Assembly: GCA_009729775.1 (NCBI GenBank)
Contig: GCA_009729775.1_4081.1
Strand: one strand, 5' to 3'
DNA: 64,000 bases
Origin: Escherichia coli
GTDB taxonomy: Bacteria; Pseudomonadota; Gammaproteobacteria; Enterobacterales; Enterobacteriaceae
Numbering within the stretch: the stretch's first letter is position 1; each line of letters starts with the position of its first letter. The translations under genes were made by a program, and so were the position numbers. Below the pieces are notes generated by a model. The model ran no database searches. It had not been told where the DNA came from and saw only the letters and a program-made list of their open reading frames with translations. This document shows, piece by piece, positions 1 to 64,000 of this stretch.

Positions 1-74
1 TGTTGAACTGTATTGAACAGTGCGTCCTGGATAAAATAATTTGCAGTATCGATGTTTCCTAAAATATCTAACAT
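1..74 (-). CDS. hypothetical protein, 5' part only (continues beyond window start)
   Basis: ATG at 72-74 on minus strand, open to coordinate 1; overlaps stop of upstream gene (ATGTTAG coupling). Confidence 0.3.
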   Translation of the reverse strand, partial: MLDILGNIDTANYFIQDALFNTVQ

Positions 75-604
75 AACTTCTCCTTTATAGCTGTCATATT
101 TAGAAGAAATTCAGTAAGCAATTCCTCCGTAACATGCTCTGTATACCAGAATATCACAATATCTTTTGAAAGTCTAGTATTCATAAAAATATCTACTAAC
201 TCTTTGTAGTACTCTAGCGTTTCGAGATTTGTGAGAATTAACGAGTACTGAAAGAGTAATTCTTCAGTTAGATTAAATTCTGGATAAAGTAAATCATTGA
301 ACTCATGTGATGCAGTTTGAACTTGAATTCGGTCAAAGTTATTGGTTATACAACCGGAATAACTATTTCTGTACAACGCTCTGTACAACGCAGCATAATC
401 TATGAATTTTGCTTTAGGGTTAAAATCAAGAACACTTTCACCTTTATATGACAATCGGTGGAACGCCGAGAACATAGTCACTTCCCACGGTTGCTTAATA
501 TCTAGCTCAGTGATATCAATATTATTGGACAGAAGAACCGTAAAAATCTCACCAATCTTTAATAGTAATTTTGTACGTGCCAGTGCTACCATCGGATCAG
601 ACAT
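68..604 (-). CDS. family A paralog (hypothetical)
   Basis: 178 aa ORF; core motif EELLFQYSLI. Confidence 0.7.
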   Translation of the reverse strand: MSDPMVALARTKLLLKIGEIFTVLLSNNIDITELDIKQPWEVTMFSAFHRLSYKGESVLDFNPKAKFIDYAALYRALYRNSYSGCITNNFDRIQVQTASHEFNDLLYPEFNLTEELLFQYSLILTNLETLEYYKELVDIFMNTRLSKDIVIFWYTEHVTEELLTEFLLNMTAIKEKLC

Positions 605-1017
605 TATACACCTTCATATTCATCAAGAAAATCTTCGATAATCATTTCAGCTTCATCCATATGCATAGCATCAACTTCAATGATGCGAACTTTAGATGCA
701 TCCCAAATCATATAACTAGGAACATTATCAGGCTCGTAGTCATTTTTGTACTGAACAGCATCATAACCTTGAGCAGTGCAATTCTCAATAAGTGAACGCC
801 ACTCATCATCACTGCCTAAATCTTCACACAGAAGCACGTTATCAACATCAACTTCTAAGGTATGCAAGTATACTGTACATGCGTCTACTACGTTCAGTGG
901 GCTTCTCAGCTTGCGTAATGCAGCTTCCAAAGCACTGTGTTTACCTCCCATATGAAGACCACCATACGGGATATAAAAGTTATCAATTTTTACAGTACTC
1001 GCATGATACAGTTTCAT
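604..1017 (-). CDS. hypothetical protein
   Basis: 137 aa ORF in operon context, no family motif. Confidence 0.55.
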   Translation of the reverse strand: MKLYHASTVKIDNFYIPYGGLHMGGKHSALEAALRKLRSPLNVVDACTVYLHTLEVDVDNVLLCEDLGSDDEWRSLIENCTAQGYDAVQYKNDYEPDNVPSYMIWDASKVRIIEVDAMHMDEAEMIIEDFLDEYEGV

Positions 1018-1026
1018 ATTTCATTC

Positions 1027-1611
1027 CTATTTCAGTACTTTAGTCAATGCTTTCACAGCGGTTTCGAGTTGAGCATAGTCGTTAATTGTAAGGTAATGAA
1101 TACCATGTGCCTTCATTTCAGCATCTATTTTACTATATAAATCAAACATGTCAAGGATATGATTGTATGCATATGAAGTATTTGAAACACACAATTCTTG
1201 GAACAAACGTTCTTCCAAGTCATTCACAACTTCTCCATGAATATCAAGTACTACACCATCTTTGTAAGTGTAGTACTCTTCACTCCACTCTTCAGAAAGT
1301 CGGAACAGTAACGGATTCCCGCCGAACACTTCCATGTCATAGGAATTTATCTCACTAAGTAGTGTTTCACCTGGTTCTGGTGTGAAGTCAAAATATGCGA
1401 GTGTTGTACCATCATAGTCCTTGAGTGATATACCAGTATGATTTAAGGTTACTTCACCATAATTATTATTCTTGAACTTGATTTTGATATTAATCTCAAT
1501 GTATTTTATTGTCTCATCATCACTGAAATTGTAATCAACTTTATACTTTTTCCAAAGAAGTTTGATATCTTTGAAGTACTTTAATTTACTTTCAATTTCT
1601 TTAAAGTCCAT
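1027..1611 (-). CDS. hypothetical protein (possible divergent family A)
   Basis: 194 aa ORF, acidic, contiguous with array. Confidence 0.55.
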   Translation of the reverse strand: MDFKEIESKLKYFKDIKLLWKKYKVDYNFSDDETIKYIEINIKIKFKNNNYGEVTLNHTGISLKDYDGTTLAYFDFTPEPGETLLSEINSYDMEVFGGNPLLFRLSEEWSEEYYTYKDGVVLDIHGEVVNDLEERLFQELCVSNTSYAYNHILDMFDLYSKIDAEMKAHGIHYLTINDYAQLETAVKALTKVLK

Positions 1612-2203
1612 CTGGAACCACCATTTCTTGAATGTGCTTACATTTTATATTTGCCATATTGGTATGTAATATAATGCTGTGTTTACGCAATGATTTTACT
1701 TTGTAGCACTCATTGAGTACTGAAATAATTCCCCATAACTCTTCTACACTAATAGTGATAGGTTCACTTGTACTCAGTTGCATCAGTGCTGCTTGAACAT
1801 CATCTTTGTTATTAATAGTGAACTGGATTCCTCTTTTGAGAATTTTAGTTTTTGGATTGTACTCAGCTAATACATCACCTTCTGGATAACCCTCATGAAG
1901 TAATAATGTTGTTTCAAAATCACCGCAGTTGAAGTTAATTTCATCATAATCAGGTACACAAATGTTCCCTTCCCCGTACTCATTAGGTTCAGATTCTAGT
2001 GTTAAAATACGCTGAGTCTCATTGCTCAGGATGATAGAATCATTCCAGTACTGGGTAGTGAATGCTCTACGTTTCTTTTGAAAGCACATACTCGACATTG
2101 AACCATACTTCTTGTATATGGACTTCTTGAACTCAATAGCAGCAGGAGCCACCTTGATAACTTCACGAATTAAGTCAATAGCTTCTTGATAACTTTTTCT
2201 CAT
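1601..2203 (-). CDS. hypothetical protein
   Basis: 200 aa ORF, overlaps neighbours by few nt. Confidence 0.55.
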   Translation of the reverse strand: MRKSYQEAIDLIREVIKVAPAAIEFKKSIYKKYGSMSSMCFQKKRRAFTTQYWNDSIILSNETQRILTLESEPNEYGEGNICVPDYDEINFNCGDFETTLLLHEGYPEGDVLAEYNPKTKILKRGIQFTINNKDDVQAALMQLSTSEPITISVEELWGIISVLNECYKVKSLRKHSIILHTNMANIKCKHIQEMVVPDGL

Positions 2204-62256: not shown

Positions 62257-62291
62257 GTATTAAATATAGTATAATGAATAAGGAGGGAATT

Positions 62292-63443
62292 ATGTTACCT
62301 TTTGCAAGAATGATTCAGTACGGGAATATTAAACCTGTTCCTGTAACACCAACGATAAAAGATTTTAAGATTGGTTTTTCCCATGAAGTGTTATTGGACA
62401 GTGCAGGTGATGTGTGGGGTATTGGATATAATACCGCTGGTCAGTTGGGATTTCTGGATGCTAACACAAATTCAATAGGAATGTGGTCTAAGATATATGA
62501 GAATGTTAGATTAATTGGCGTTACTTCCAATTATACAGTTGTAGTTACAAATAATAATAGAATACTTTACGCTGGAAATAACTTAATTTCTAATACTACA
62601 ACGTTTGGGTGGAACGATATAACGTCTAGTATGGGAGCGGTTGTAGTGGATAGCATCGATGCATTATATTGCACAGATGGCATGATGCATATTAAAACTG
62701 CTGATGGTTCTTTATACGCATATGGACGTAATATGAACGCAAACGCTGGAGTTACTGGTGTTTCTGGAGTTATTAGTGTTGCAACTAAAGTTAGTGGTTT
62801 ACCATCGGCTGTGAAAGATATACGATATACGTTTAGTTATGGTACAGTACTATGTCAATTAGATACCACCTCGGTATATGGATGGGGAAGAAATGTCAAT
62901 GGTGAATTAGGTCAGGGGAACGCAGCCGCAGTTCCTACCCCATCCCAAAGGGCGGGTGCTTCTATTGCTATAGGTACTTCGTATAATGCTACTGCAATTG
63001 TTTCCGGTACTGCATCGTTGGTTACATGTGGTGGACAAAATGATGGTCAGTTAGGTAATGGTATTACTACTGCTGGTAATGTATACACATATGGTGCTAG
63101 AGCATACCCAAGCGATCTTAATAATATAAGAAGTCCAGTGGATTGCAGTACAACTTATACATCTGCATTTATGAGTCCAGATGGCATATATTACACGGGT
63201 TCGAACCGAAGTGTTTTTGGTGGTCAGAGCGGGGCTGCCACTGTTGCATTATATACCAAATGTAGTGATTTACCAATATTATATTCTAATATAACACAGT
63301 GGTGTAGTGGTACTATTGGTGGTGCGATATGTAGCAGTACTGAATTATATCAGTGTGGGACCGGTAGATACATTGCCGGAGATGGGCAGAACGCAACTAG
63401 GTATGGGTTTAGAAAGACACCATTACCTTGGGATGTTTATTGA
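62292..63443 (+). CDS. RCC1-like repeat protein, MLPFARM paralog 6
   Basis: start at MLPFARMIQYGNIKPVP; GQLG repeats. Confidence 0.75.
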   Translation: MLPFARMIQYGNIKPVPVTPTIKDFKIGFSHEVLLDSAGDVWGIGYNTAGQLGFLDANTNSIGMWSKIYENVRLIGVTSNYTVVVTNNNRILYAGNNLISNTTTFGWNDITSSMGAVVVDSIDALYCTDGMMHIKTADGSLYAYGRNMNANAGVTGVSGVISVATKVSGLPSAVKDIRYTFSYGTVLCQLDTTSVYGWGRNVNGELGQGNAAAVPTPSQRAGASIAIGTSYNATAIVSGTASLVTCGGQNDGQLGNGITTAGNVYTYGARAYPSDLNNIRSPVDCSTTYTSAFMSPDGIYYTGSNRSVFGGQSGAATVALYTKCSDLPILYSNITQWCSGTIGGAICSSTELYQCGTGRYIAGDGQNATRYGFRKTPLPWDVY

Positions 63444-63449
63444 CATAAA

Positions 63450-63480
63450 GCCAGTACTTGAGTACTGGCATTTCTTTTTG
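63450..63480 (+). terminator. rho-independent terminator
   Basis: CCAGTACT-tg-AGTACTGG then TTTCTTTTT. Confidence 0.55.
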
Positions 63481-63515
63481 TATTAAATATAGTATAATGA
63501 ATAAAGGAGGAATTT

Positions 63516-64000
63516 ATGTTACCTTTTGCAAGAATGGTTAATTACGGGAATGTTAAACCAGCACCTTCGGGTGTACTGAAGATTGCTACATCTACAACAC
63601 ATGTGGGTATGTTGTTCGATAGTGGCAATTTATATCTACGTGGTAATGGTGCACAATATAGGCTAGGAAATGATAGTACTGCGTATTTACAAAATGGATG
63701 GATACAGTGTCCATATAAAGTTGCTAATGTTTGGTGTTTATCCGCAGGGACCATTATACTTACGACTGAAGGAGAATTTTACTTAGCAGGACAAATGGGA
63801 TACCTTGGTGTGGTTAAATCGCCTGTTCCAGGATGGACAAATATTACATCAATATTGTCTACAATACCAAGCCTTACTACAGTTCAAGATATAGCTTCTA
63901 CTGAGACTGTCGCTTCAAATGGTACTTTATTAATTATGTTAAGCAATGGTGATTTATACGGGATAGGTAGTAATACTGGAGGTGAACTGGGTGTTTCTGG
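63516..64000 (+). CDS. RCC1-like repeat protein, MLPFARM paralog 7 (3' end beyond window)
   Basis: ATG at 63516 after conserved cassette; MLPFARMVNYGNVKPAP, open to window end. Confidence 0.65.
   Translation, partial: MLPFARMVNYGNVKPAPSGVLKIATSTTHVGMLFDSGNLYLRGNGAQYRLGNDSTAYLQNGWIQCPYKVANVWCLSAGTIILTTEGEFYLAGQMGYLGVVKSPVPGWTNITSILSTIPSLTTVQDIASTETVASNGTLLIMLSNGDLYGIGSNTGGELGVS

What the first reader, a model, noticed from the sequence alone, without database searches (positions are those of the whole stretch)
1..64000. Palindromic octamer CAGTACTG recurs in coding, promoter and terminator contexts
AGTACT or CAGTACTG appears in the spacer just upstream of many -10 hexamers (..CAGTACTGTATAAT), in the stems of all RCC1-gene terminators (CCAGTACT...AGTACTGG), densely in the non-coding region, and inside the family A core, where Gln-Tyr/x-Ser-Thr is very often encoded as CAG-TAC-AGT-ACT. 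Repeated use of the AGT-ACT codon pair points to DNA-level conservation of the palindrome. It could be a binding or modification site.
Basis: seen in the sequence. Interest (0 to 1): 0.65.

Follow-up and report, generated by a model that had tools for sequence, protein, structure and literature searches.

The report
Highly iterated palindrome in jumbo phages
The palindrome cAGTACTg is written into the DNA of a group of giant E. coli-type phages about ten to sixty times more often than chance allows. It even bends codon and amino-acid choice, so some still unknown protein probably reads it as a dense mark of the phage's own DNA.

Summary
The window comes from an Asteriusvirus (121Q/PBECO4-like jumbo coliphage). 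AGTACT occurs 253 times against 19 expected, and CAGTACTG 60 times against 0.8. AGTACT is the commonest hexamer in the window.

Across the whole 121Q genome AGTACT occurs 903 times against 118 expected, and every 5-kb bin is enriched. The same holds in RaK2, GAP32 and CBB. It does not hold in Pseudomonas phage PA5oct or in environmental relatives. E. coli and unrelated phages are depleted in the site.

Sites lie in all three reading frames. They are 3-8 times more frequent than amino-acid sequence and codon usage predict, and they skew dipeptide composition. Synonymous positions inside sites are conserved (94% against 76%). Across genera the positions turn over but the density is kept.

Sites also sit at fixed positions in early sigma-70 promoters and in terminator stems.

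I read it as a phage "highly iterated palindrome": a selected double-stranded DNA recognition site. The function is not shown.

A conserved 7.7-kb block carries the one-strand variant AGTACA instead, and I cannot explain it.

The parts
1..64000 (.). Field of the iterated palindrome cAGTACTg: 253 AGTACT and 60 CAGTACTG. 174 sites are in coding sequence (all frames) and 79 are intergenic or at gene edges.
1..18116 (-). Tightly packed block of ~100-200-aa paralogous ('family A') genes carrying about 64 AGTACT sites inside coding sequence. This is the stretch used for the conservation tests against phage EC.P1.
18117..37150 (.). Approximate extent of the direct terminal repeat. This is inferred: position 1 of the Sharanji record aligns to window 18117, and the Sharanji paper reports a 20,668-bp repeat from PhageTerm.
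   Evidence: inference, not verified on this phage
18492..26176 (-). gap1: no AGTACT at all, but 40 copies of the one-strand variant AGTACA on the sense (minus) strand. These lie in all three frames (16/12/11). The genes are paralogues of the family A block.
26177..28935 (-). Short island with 14 AGTACT sites between the two site-free blocks.
28936..33218 (-). gap2: array of about 20 tiny (70-96 aa) genes with no AGTACT and no GTAC enrichment (9 GTAC against 13 expected).
33219..52600 (-). Array of small early-type genes, each with its own near-consensus sigma-70 promoter. 26 of 33 strong promoters carry AGTACT at fixed positions. The window's highest AGTACT density lies here and in the non-coding 51.3-53.2 kb stretch that overlaps its end.
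36035..36062 (-). Example promoter TTGACAaagtatatcAGTACTgTATAAT, with the palindrome in the spacer next to the -10 hexamer.
41182..41216 (-). Example two-site promoter AGTACTTGCAAttagttttcAGTACTgTATAAT. The sites are 20 bp apart; one overlaps the -35 hexamer and one lies in the spacer.
45519..45556 (-). Example two-site promoter AGTACTATTGACAtagtttgatAGTACTGGCATAAT, with the sites 22 bp apart.
51315..53164 (.). Non-coding control region with 18 AGTACT and 11 CAGTACTG, often as aTTCAGTACTGAAt. Transcription diverges here and the cumulative GC skew reaches its minimum. It also holds TGATTAC iterons.
57293..57316 (+). Terminator of an RCC1 gene: GCCAGTACTtgATACTGGC followed by a T-run.
60975..61005 (+). 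Terminator of an RCC1 gene, AGCCAGTACTcAGTACTGGCT followed by a T-run, with both arms built from the palindrome (-12.8 kcal/mol).
63449..63480 (+). Terminator of an RCC1 gene, AGCCAGTACTtgAGTACTGGCA followed by a T-run (-13.5 kcal/mol).
56118..63443 (+). Five or six tandem RCC1-like genes (Pfam RCC1/WD40_RLD), with 22 AGTACT sites in 56.1-63.5 kb (9x). They show that the enrichment also holds on the other coding strand.

Best explanation
cAGTACTg is a highly iterated palindrome of the enterobacterial RaK2-like jumbo phages (Asteriusvirus, Mimasvirus, Alcyoneusvirus).

Shown: selection acting on double-stranded DNA keeps it at high density. What matters is how many sites there are, not where each one lies. 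Phage DNA carries roughly one site per 250-390 bp, against about one per 17 kb in an E. coli sample.

Inferred: the sites are read by a clade-specific, two-fold symmetric protein. My leading version is an unidentified phage-encoded dimeric DNA-binding protein. It would coat, organise or mark the phage's own genome. At early sigma-70 promoters, where a site lies beside the -10 hexamer or over the -35 hexamer, it would act as an operator that switches early transcription off or modulates it.

Because the motif is so abundant, pairs of it have also been recruited as stems of intrinsic terminators.
For: Real and specific:
- AGTACT 253 against 19, and CAGTACTG 60 against 0.8.
- AGTACT is the only outlier among palindromic hexamers.

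Genome-wide and clade-wide:
- 121Q has 903 AGTACT against 118 expected, and every 5-kb bin is enriched.
- RaK2 has 114 against 17, GAP32 253 against 17 and CBB 266 against 17 per 50 kb.
- Every IMG/VR contig whose major capsid protein is at least 80% identical shows 3-6.5x enrichment even in structural genes.

Selection at the DNA level:
- Sites lie in all three frames.
- They are 3-8.6x more frequent than amino-acid sequence and codon usage predict, in four genera.
- Dipeptides are skewed: Ser-Thr, Val-Leu and Gln-Tyr are 1.4-1.8x while their reversed orders are about 1.0x.
- At 84% nucleotide identity, 79% of sites are conserved against 47% of all hexamers.
- Third-codon positions inside sites are 93.6% conserved against 75.8% elsewhere (p = 1e-5).

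Density rather than position:
- Across genera only 31% of sites keep their position, against 20% for hexamers in general, yet density stays at 39-45 per 21 kb.
- The profile along genes is flat.

Symmetric double-stranded DNA recognition:
- Flank preferences are palindromic: C before and G after the site 44-51% of the time, G before it only 6-10%.
- One-off variants are equally enriched on both strands outside gap1.
- Graded enrichment of outer-position variants (2x) fits binding-energy recognition.

Operator-like use:
- 26 of 33 strong promoters in the window, and 25 of 59 in 121Q, carry a site, against 15% of random intergenic windows.
- Positions peak at 7-8 and at 27 bases upstream of the -10 hexamer. 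Paired sites lie 20-22 bp apart.

Self-mark potential:
- E. coli has 3 against 11.6 expected in 50 kb.
- Unrelated coliphage EC.P2 has 0 against 13.8.
- Pooled unrelated phage contigs have 70 against 225.
Against: - No cognate protein was identified. Pfam finds no helix-turn-helix or other DNA-binding domain among 138 window ORFs.
- 84% of the sites in 121Q lie inside genes, which no ordinary operator system shows.
- Many promoter cassettes are duplicates of a few ancestral ones, so their fixed site positions are partly inherited and not independent evidence.
- The model does not explain why a 7.7-kb block excludes AGTACT and instead accumulates the half-broken, strand-oriented AGTACA.
- A 6-8-bp site with almost no extended flanks is shorter than typical operators and looks like a restriction or methylation specificity.
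- No experiment bears on binding, and none is available here.
Confidence: 0.4

Rival explanations
1. Modification site of the cyanobacterial HIP1 type. AGTACT, or its GTAC core, would be the target of a phage methyltransferase. A dense array of methylatable palindromes would be selected or created because a methyl-dependent process uses it, for example strand discrimination in repair, replication-coupled marking, or protection from AGTACT-specific restriction.
For: - The site is a short strict palindrome identical to the ScaI/Eco255I specificity (own knowledge).
- It is avoided in the host sample, in EC.P2 and in pooled phage contigs, as restriction targets are.
- One-base deviants cluster at the outer positions, leaving GTAC intact, as described for HIP1 (Elhai 2015, PMC4390886, listed, details recalled from memory).
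- A relative carries a different iterated palindrome, TTCGAA, which suggests a factor whose specificity can switch.
- The phages encode a C5 and a Dam-like methyltransferase.
- RaK2 DNA resists methylation-sensitive enzymes (PMC3622015).
Against: - The two recognisable methyltransferases are plausibly accounted for by the CpG and Dam-type methylation reported for RaK2.
- A phage with a 51%-identical homologue of the C5 enzyme has no AGTACT at all.
- Contigs carrying homologues of the Dam-like enzyme are depleted in AGTACT, 0.31x.
- No third methyltransferase was found among ten neighbouring proteins.
- No one-mutation neighbour is depleted as a very-short-patch-type repair drive would predict.
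- Methylation alone does not explain the enrichment.
Confidence: 0.25
2. A polar or end-related signal for a DNA translocase or nuclease, of the Chi or KOPS type. The active unit would be the oriented word (C)AGTAC. The palindrome would then work in both directions, and the oriented AGTACA array next to the genome end would be the one-directional form.
For: - GTACTG and CAGTAC are the most enriched hexamers.
- gap1 has 40-48 sense-strand AGTACA against 0-2 on the other strand, and it begins within about 400 bp of the inferred genome terminus.
- The pattern is kept in a subgroup with only 45% amino-acid identity.
Against: - Flank preferences of AGTACT are symmetric.
- CBB and GAP32 have no oriented block, and the CBB terminal repeat is full of AGTACT.
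- Orientation cannot be separated from the direction of transcription.
- The terminus position is inferred from another phage's record.
Confidence: 0.08
3. A by-product without function. A biased mutation, repair or gene-conversion process in this clade keeps generating AGTACT, and promoters and terminators merely reuse abundant material.
For: - Individual sites turn over quickly while density is constant.
- The distribution along genes is uniform.
- Terminator stems and promoter cassettes look opportunistic.
Against: - Existing sites are under purifying selection, including at synonymous positions.
- No neighbour word is depleted.
- Amino-acid composition has been bent to fit the motif.
- A drive cannot by itself exclude a 12-kb region and replace the motif there with a variant.
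Confidence: 0.1
4. An RNA-level signal. AGUACU in transcripts would be a nuclease or binding site, or self-complementary material for RNA helices.
For: - Two copies can pair to form hairpins, and some do so as terminators.
- The gap1 variant is confined to the sense strand.
Against: - Flanks are palindromic, and outside gap1 the one-off variants are equally enriched on both strands.
- The highest density is in promoters and in the non-coding region 51.3-53.2 kb, although whether the latter is transcribed was not tested.
- The enrichment is the same for genes on either strand.
Confidence: 0.07
5. Sites for a host protein of Enterobacterales that the phage titrates or recruits. SlmA is the example, since its binding site GTGAGTACTCAC has the same core.
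For: - The enrichment is confined to phages of Enterobacterales and is absent from the Pseudomonas relative.
- The AGTACT core is shared with the SlmA site (own knowledge).
Against: - There are no matches to GTGAGTACTCAC within 2 mismatches among 253 cores in the window.
- GAGTACTC accounts for only 3 of 903 sites in 121Q, whereas CAGTACTG accounts for 194.
- No LexA box is present.
- The clade boundary is equally well explained by a phage gene.
Confidence: 0.05
6. An ordinary explanation. The counts would be inflated by paralogous genes, one amino-acid motif, and duplicated promoter and terminator cassettes.
For: - The window is full of paralogous gene families and duplicated cassettes.
- The FQYST core does encode the motif.
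Against: - Flanks are random, and sites fall in all frames at non-homologous positions.
- Enrichment holds in unique structural and replication genes, in a single 10-kb gene, and in four genera.
- Only two exact FQYST cases exist.
Confidence: 0.02

Closest known systems
HIP1 (GCGATCGC) and alternate highly iterated palindromes of cyanobacteria
   Same: - A short palindrome at up to about one per few hundred bp.
- Present in coding sequence (all frames) and in non-coding DNA.
- Conserved above neutral expectation.
- One-base deviants concentrated at the outer positions.
- Related lineages can carry a different palindrome.
- Function unknown.
   Different: - This one is in a virus, not a cell.
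- It is AT-rich, with a GTAC core rather than GATC.
- No cognate methyltransferase was identified here; the two present seem to be assigned to other specificities.
- It sits at fixed positions in sigma-70 promoters.
- It has an excluded block with an oriented variant.
DNA uptake sequences (Neisseria DUS, Pasteurellaceae USS)
   Same: - About 1 per kb or denser.
- Found inside genes, with measurable effects on the peptides encoded.
- Inverted pairs serve as transcription terminators.
- Density is maintained while positions turn over.
   Different: - DUS and USS are non-palindromic 9-12-mers.
- They are read by an uptake receptor and spread by transformation.
- No comparable uptake step is known for a lytic phage.
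ScaI/Eco255I restriction-modification specificity AGT^ACT (own knowledge)
   Same: - The hexamer is identical.
- The host sample and unrelated phages are depleted in it, as expected of a restriction target.
   Different: Restriction targets are normally avoided by phages. Here the site is 8-16-fold enriched, and no matching enzyme pair was found in the phage.
Genome-wide phage regulators: phi29 protein p6, and the mycobacteriophage L5 repressor with its 'stoperators' (own knowledge)
   Same: One phage protein binds many sites along the phage genome, both at early promoters and inside genes, and controls early transcription. Stoperators are oriented relative to transcription, like the gap1 variant.
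   Different: - p6 has little sequence specificity.
- Stoperators are 13-bp asymmetric sites, a few dozen per genome, and serve lysogeny.
- Here there are about 900 palindromic sites in a lytic phage, and no protein is known.
SlmA-binding sites of E. coli (GTGAGTACTCAC; own knowledge)
   Same: The same central AGTACT, a palindrome, and a host range (Enterobacterales) that matches the phage clade.
   Different: The required GTG...CAC flanks are absent and even disfavoured.

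Membership tests
Highly iterated palindrome (HIP1 type) | A short palindrome far above expectation throughout the genome | tested here: met
   Window 253 against 19. 121Q 903 against 118, with all 5-kb bins enriched. CAGTACTG 194 against 3.4.
Highly iterated palindrome (HIP1 type) | Present in coding sequence in all frames as well as in non-coding DNA | tested here: met
   Frame counts for minus-strand genes are 53/34/55, plus 79 intergenic sites. The codon-aware excess is 3-8.6x.
Highly iterated palindrome (HIP1 type) | Sites conserved above the neutral expectation | tested here: met
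   79% against 47% for whole hexamers. Third positions 93.6% against 75.8%, p = 1e-5. Across genera the effect is weak, 31% against 20%.
Highly iterated palindrome (HIP1 type) | A cognate orphan methyltransferase for the palindrome or its core | tested here: inconclusive
   A PF00145 and a PF05869 methyltransferase are present but their specificity is unknown. The literature points to CpG and Dam-type methylation. Homologues in other phages go with depletion of AGTACT.
Highly iterated palindrome (HIP1 type) | One-base deviants biased to the outer positions | tested here: met
   Of the three position-1/6 variant pairs, two are about 2x (TGTACT/AGTACA 2.0x, GGTACT/AGTACC 1.96x) and one is 1.16x (CGTACT/AGTACG). 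Variants at inner positions are 0.5-1.67x, mostly near 1.
Highly iterated palindrome (HIP1 type) | Alternate palindromes in related lineages | tested here: inconclusive
   One contig (L044) has TTCGAA 68 against 7 in all frames, with a codon-aware excess of 1.5-4.8x. Its nearest sampled relatives lack this.
DNA uptake sequence (DUS/USS) | A non-palindromic 9-12-mer read by the uptake machinery of a competent bacterium | tested here: not met
   The motif is a 6-8-bp palindrome in a lytic phage.
DNA uptake sequence (DUS/USS) | Inverted pairs used as terminators | tested here: met
   60975-61005 and 63449-63480: hairpins of two copies followed by a T-run.
Type II restriction-modification target protected by methylation | The sites carry a covalent modification | not testable with these tools
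   This needs SMRT or nanopore kinetics, or ScaI/RsaI digestion of virion DNA.
Type II restriction-modification target protected by methylation | The site is avoided in unprotected genomes of the same ecosystem | tested here: met
   E. coli sample 3 against 11.6, EC.P2 0 against 13.8, PA5oct 4 against 17, pooled phage contigs 70 against 225.
Operator of a dimeric repressor at sigma-70 promoters | A palindromic site overlapping core promoter elements at fixed positions | tested here: met
   Positions 7-8 and 27 bases upstream of the -10 hexamer. 26 of 33 promoters (window) and 25 of 59 (121Q), against 15% background.
Operator of a dimeric repressor at sigma-70 promoters | Sites confined to regulatory regions | tested here: not met
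   758 of 903 sites in 121Q are inside genes.
Operator of a dimeric repressor at sigma-70 promoters | An identified cognate DNA-binding protein | tested here: inconclusive
   No DNA-binding domain was found among 138 window ORFs. Most phage proteins are unannotated.
SlmA-binding site | 12-bp consensus GTGAGTACTCAC | tested here: not met
   0 matches within 2 mismatches in the window. GAGTACTC accounts for 3 of 903 sites in 121Q.
LexA SOS box | TACTG(TA)5CAGTA, that is CTG-N10-CAG | tested here: not met
   0 matches within 3 mismatches. No excess of pairs at the 18-bp start-to-start spacing such a box needs; the peak is at 20-22 bp.
Chi/KOPS-type polar sequence | Strand-oriented occurrence | tested here: not met
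   AGTACT is a palindrome with symmetric flanks. Only the gap1 variant AGTACA is oriented, 48 against 2.
Intrinsic terminator | A GC-containing hairpin followed by a T-run at a gene end | tested here: met
   True for a small subset only: the RCC1 gene ends and a few others.

The most novel reading that the evidence does not exclude
RaK2-like jumbo phages, which have no phage nucleus, write a dense palindromic 'barcode' into their genomes. It is AGTACT in the enterobacterial clade and possibly TTCGAA in another lineage. The host and competing phages lack or avoid the same word. A dedicated, still unknown reader protein would use this barcode to tell phage DNA from all other DNA, for transcription control, genome organisation, repair, packaging or protection. 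The strand-oriented AGTACA array in the terminal-repeat block would be a polar version of the same code. This would be a sequence-based self-recognition system for a virus, strong enough to have reshaped its proteome and its tRNA set.
Probability: 0.3. Interest if true: 0.88.

Novelty: new variant of a known kind. Interest (0 to 1): 0.72.

Why it matters
Over-represented short words (Chi, uptake sequences, HIP1) have each led to a piece of DNA-handling machinery. A palindrome that is the commonest hexamer of a 350-kb virus implies a strong function that nobody has described. It is kept across four genera and four host genera (Escherichia, Klebsiella, Cronobacter, Pectobacterium). It runs against the general avoidance of the same word in hosts and other phages. 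It is strong enough to distort codon use, dipeptide content and perhaps the phage tRNA set.

I found no mention of it in the searchable literature on these phages.

It gives a concrete handle, a 6-8-bp bait sequence, for finding a new DNA reader or modifier in jumbo phages, where 83% of phAPEC6 gene products, for example, have no known function (phAPEC6 abstract). It may also bear on the long-open question of what highly iterated palindromes are for.

There are practical sides too. The sites define the early promoter and terminator cassettes. ScaI and RsaI behaviour on this DNA would be diagnostic. The motif density is a clean marker for assigning metagenomic contigs to this clade.

Tried and rejected
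- Amino-acid motif or paralogy artefact: rejected. Sites lie in all frames with random flanks, and unique genes are enriched too.
- Long repeat or mobile element: rejected by the flank logo.
- Very-short-patch-type repair drive: no depleted neighbour words.
- SlmA sites and LexA boxes: no matches.
- C5 methyltransferase gp91 as the cause: a phage with a 51%-identical homologue has no AGTACT at all, and the RaK2 paper reports CpG methylation.
- Dam-like methyltransferase gp417 as the cause: contigs carrying homologues are depleted in AGTACT.
- Mom-like modification: the gene is present in RaK2 but replaced by RNase H in 121Q.
- An extra methyltransferase near gp417: none found by Pfam.
- A DNA-binding protein in the window: none found by Pfam. 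The hits were RCC1, a DksA/TraR zinc finger, a ParE-like domain, GNAT, DUF1033 and DUF7249.
- T5-like 'first-step-transfer' restriction avoidance as the reason for the site-free blocks: rejected. Five sites lie in the first 400 bp, other parts of the repeat are site-rich, and the CBB terminal repeat is full of sites.
- Foreign origin of gap1: rejected. It holds the same gene family, and the pattern is kept at 45% amino-acid identity.
- Other apparent 'alternate palindromes' in relatives (CACGTG, GTATAC, CAATTG): these turned out to be in-frame tandem protein repeats.
- Known RNA families and tRNAs in the window: none.
- Literature searches for the motif in jumbo phages: nothing relevant.

Full report
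**Identity of the window.** Megablast places the window in the genus Asteriusvirus, the jumbo myophages of E. coli (121Q, PBECO4, G17, UB, Sharanji). Identity is 97-99% over the first 20 kb and 85-95% with mosaic coverage elsewhere. Most of the window (1-56 kb) is a minus-strand array of small genes. From 56 kb a plus-strand array of RCC1-like genes begins. A 1.85-kb non-coding region at 51.3-53.2 kb separates the two directions and coincides with the minimum of the cumulative GC skew.

- CAGTACTG occurs 60 times against 0.81 expected, and AGTACT 253 times against 19.3, by dinucleotide-preserving shuffles.
- AGTACT is the most frequent hexamer in the window. GTACTG and CAGTAC have the highest observed/expected ratios, and no other palindromic hexamer exceeds about 3x.
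- The consensus is cAGTACTg. C precedes and G follows in 44-51% of sites, whereas G before or C after is disfavoured (6-10%).
- Beyond that the flanks carry almost no information, so this is a short word and not a piece of a longer repeat.

**It is not an amino-acid motif or a duplication artefact.**
- Of the 253 sites, 174 lie inside ORFs, in all three frames (53/34/55 for minus-strand genes), and 79 are intergenic.
- Given the encoded protein sequences and the phage's own codon usage, AGTACT is 3.5, 3.4 and 5.3 times more frequent than expected in frames 0, 1 and 2 in the window. In the whole 121Q genome the figures are 3.6, 6.3 and 4.5.
- The same test gives 3-8.6x in RaK2, CBB and the structural region of 121Q, and 0.3x in PA5oct.
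- Ser-Thr is written AGT-ACT in 46-52% of cases against 13-15% expected.
- Protein composition is bent as well. Ser-Thr, Val-Leu and Gln-Tyr are 1.4-1.8x over expectation, whereas the reversed dipeptides are about 1.0x.

**Scale.**
- I assembled the complete 121Q genome. AGTACT occurs 903 times against 118 expected, and CAGTACTG 194 times against 3.4.
- Every 5-kb bin is enriched (5-39 sites against 1.7 expected), including replication genes, structural genes and a single 10-kb virion gene. The peak lies at the early-gene and non-coding region that corresponds to window 33-55 kb.
- The same palindrome is the top hexamer in Klebsiella phage RaK2 (114 against 17 per 50 kb), Cronobacter phage GAP32 (253 against 17), Pectobacterium phage CBB (266 against 17) and coliphage EC.P1.
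- Among 80 IMG/VR contigs recovered with the 121Q major capsid protein, every contig at 80% identity or more shows 3.2-6.5x enrichment around the capsid gene. One contig at 72% shows 2.4x. Those at 64-69% show none.
- The Pseudomonas relative PA5oct is depleted, 4 against 17.

**Background.**
- The word is avoided elsewhere: 3 against 11.6 in a 50-kb E. coli K-12 sample and 0 against 13.8 in the unrelated coliphage EC.P2.
- It occurs 70 times against 225 expected, pooled over about 60 unrelated phage contigs.
- Phage DNA therefore carries the word at roughly 40-60 times the density of host DNA.

**Selection.**
- Against EC.P1 (84% nucleotide identity), 38 of 48 aligned sites are intact (79%), against 47% of all hexamers.
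- Third-codon positions inside sites are 93.6% conserved against 75.8% elsewhere (Fisher p = 1.2e-5).
- Across genera (about 73% identity) only 53 of 173 sites keep their place, 31% against about 20% for hexamers in general (p = 6e-4). Each genome nevertheless keeps 39-45 sites in the same 21 kb.
- Density, not position, is therefore what is maintained.
- Along genes the profile is flat. There are moderate peaks 50-80 nt upstream of start codons and 0-30 nt after stop codons, and a dip over ribosome-binding sites.
- No single-mutation neighbour is depleted in the way a very-short-patch-type repair drive predicts. Two of the three outer-position variant pairs are about 2x enriched, while inner-position variants are mostly near 1x.

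**Regulatory contexts.**
- The 33-53 kb stretch holds an unusually dense set of near-consensus sigma-70 promoters, 13 of them perfect 12/12 matches.
- 26 of 33 strong promoters contain AGTACT at one of four fixed positions:
  - in the spacer directly before the -10 hexamer (AGTACTgTATAAT, 17 cases);
  - over the 5' edge of the -35 hexamer (AGTACTTGCAA, 9 cases);
  - just upstream of the -35 hexamer (AGTACTATTGACA, 4 cases);
  - over its 3' edge (TTGACAGTACT, 3 cases).
- Two-site versions have the sites 20 or 22 bp apart, and these spacings stand out in the genome-wide pair-distance histogram.
- In 121Q, 25 of 59 strong intergenic promoters carry a site, against 15% of random intergenic windows. 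The positions peak 7-8 and 27 bases upstream of the -10 hexamer.
- Many of these cassettes are near-identical copies, so they are not all independent.
- Of the six RCC1 gene ends checked, five are followed by a terminator whose 5' arm is GCCAGTACT. Two have the palindrome in both arms.

**An unexplained exception.**
- Window 18492-26176 has no AGTACT but 40 copies of AGTACA on the sense strand (14.7x), in all three frames. Nearly every GTAC there is followed by A on the sense strand.
- The same holds in 121Q (48 against 2 on the other strand), in Sharanji and in Ecwhy_1. In Ecwhy_1 the proteins of this block are only about 45% identical, yet it has 0 AGTACT, 38 AGTACA and 0 TGTACT.
- The genes are paralogues of the neighbouring AGTACT-rich family. 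The shared FQYST core ends in ACT outside the block and in ACA inside it.
- A second block, 28936-33218, holds about 20 tiny genes and has neither word.
- Both blocks lie in what is probably the direct terminal repeat. Position 1 of the Sharanji record aligns to window 18117, and its authors report a 20.7-kb repeat from PhageTerm (PMC11895373). An earlier study assumed headful packaging for 121Q (PMC5646251), so the ends are not settled.
- CBB and GAP32 have no such blocks.
- Simple restriction avoidance in first-entering DNA does not fit, because five sites lie in the first 400 bp and other parts of the repeat are rich in sites.

**Candidate readers.**
- 121Q encodes a C5 methyltransferase (PF00145) and a Dam-like methyltransferase (PF05869).
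- The RaK2 paper reports resistance to methylation-sensitive enzymes and methylated CpG (PMC3622015).
- A phage with a 51%-identical C5 homologue lacks AGTACT completely.
- Contigs with Dam-like homologues are depleted in the word.
- RaK2's Mom-like gene is not shared with 121Q.
- No further methyltransferase and no DNA-binding domain was recognised.
- The searchable papers on CBB, RaK2, phAPEC6, Sharanji and 121Q do not mention the palindrome, and direct text searches found nothing relevant.

**A possible parallel.** One environmental relative (L044, capsid protein 65% identical) has TTCGAA 68 times against 7.1 expected. The sites fall in all frames and in 20 of the 1-kb bins of the 21-kb locus, with a codon-aware excess of 1.5-4.8x. 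Its nearest sampled relatives lack this, so it is a lead and not yet a pattern.

**Interpretation.**
- Shown: a clade-specific palindrome maintained by selection on DNA at high density, with co-option into early promoters and terminators.
- Inferred: the symmetric flanks, the equal enrichment of variants on both strands and the operator-like promoter geometry point to recognition of duplex DNA by a two-fold symmetric protein.
- I favour a DNA-binding protein (0.4) over a modification enzyme (0.25), for three reasons:
  - methyltransferases are easy to recognise, and the two present seem to be accounted for;
  - recognition looks graded rather than all-or-none;
  - the promoter sites sit where a repressor would.
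- This ranking is weak.
- The closest known phenomenon is HIP1 of cyanobacteria. Most of the descriptive HIP features I tested are met; the cognate-methyltransferase and alternate-palindrome criteria are unresolved.

Noticed in passing
window 18492-26176 (121Q about 160-170 kb; L014 8001-15000; L015 1001-8000): This block has no AGTACT but 38-48 sense-strand AGTACA in all frames. The pattern is conserved between subgroups with 45% amino-acid identity, and the block starts about 400 bp from the inferred genome terminus. Unexplained.
   Followed up: partly
window 28936-33218: Tandem array of about 20 tiny (70-96 aa) genes lacking GTAC-type motifs altogether. The most enriched words here are TGATAG, CTGATA and TCCTGA on the plus strand. 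I read these as a shared upstream/ribosome-binding stretch (ACTATCAGGA on the sense strand), but did not map them onto the ORFs.
   Followed up: no
window 33-52 kb, e.g. 36000-36030, 40525-40555, 41150-41180: Many early promoters are followed, right after a conserved (T)TTACAT, by a 5'-UTR hairpin GGGGAGAA...TTCTCCCC and then the ribosome-binding site. This may be an mRNA-stabilising or processing element.
   Followed up: no
window 34549-34576, 36472-36499, 39831-39858, 43885-43912 (minus strand): A repeated 28-nt hairpin AAAGGGATTGACTCCGGTCAGTCCCTTT. Its stem contains a -35-like TTGACT and is followed by TATTAT, so a terminator and a promoter overlap in one cassette.
   Followed up: no
window 51315-53164, especially 52824-52857 and 52992-53047: The non-coding region sits at the GC-skew minimum and at the point where transcription diverges. 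It holds TGATTAC iterons spaced 10-11 bp apart and several other direct repeats. It is a candidate replication origin or control hub.
   Followed up: partly
window 57285-57360, 60969-61040, 63444-63520 and equivalents (121Q 117-131 kb): Each RCC1-like gene is a cassette: a terminator, then the conserved TATTAAATATAGTATAAT (a late-type or -10-like element), then a ribosome-binding site. It is duplicated more than ten times.
   Followed up: partly
L002 25464-25555 (121Q 75464-75555): The phage encodes a tRNA-Ser with the rare anticodon ACT, which reads AGT, and a tRNA-Thr(TGT). AGT is the commonest Ser codon here (32-35%), apparently because of the palindrome.
   Followed up: partly
121Q whole genome: The E. 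coli Chi sequence GCTGGTGG occurs 18 times on the plus strand and 11 times on the minus strand, against about 1 expected on each. CTGGTG is among the most enriched hexamers in 121Q, RaK2 and GAP32. This may reflect codon usage or protection from RecBCD.
   Followed up: no
L044 (IMGVR_UViG_3300044959_000303, 50176-71393): A relative with a 65%-identical capsid protein has TTCGAA 68 times against 7 expected, in all frames and spread over the whole locus. This may be a second iterated palindrome. Its closest sampled relatives lack it.
   Followed up: partly
L012 (Escherichia phage EC.P2), L178-L251: AGTACT is absent from 41 kb of EC.P2 (13.8 expected) and is 0.31x overall in about 60 unrelated phage contigs. 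One 12-kb contig (L178) has no GTAC at all. This looks like widespread avoidance of GTAC-type sites.
   Followed up: partly
window 41633-41890 and 41213-41569 (minus strand): Among the small early genes are a DksA/TraR-type zinc-finger protein and a GNAT acetyltransferase. Their window coordinates are inferred from matching lengths to 121Q genes 294 and 295. A ParE-like toxin domain and a DUF7249 protein also occur somewhere in the window.
   Followed up: no
L174 and 121Q generally: GATC is under-represented (0.47x) in a 20.5-kb stretch of 121Q around its Dam-like methyltransferase gene (L174), and less so in the matching stretches of GAP32, CBB and a related ~357-kb IMG/VR contig (0.73-0.83x).
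   Followed up: no
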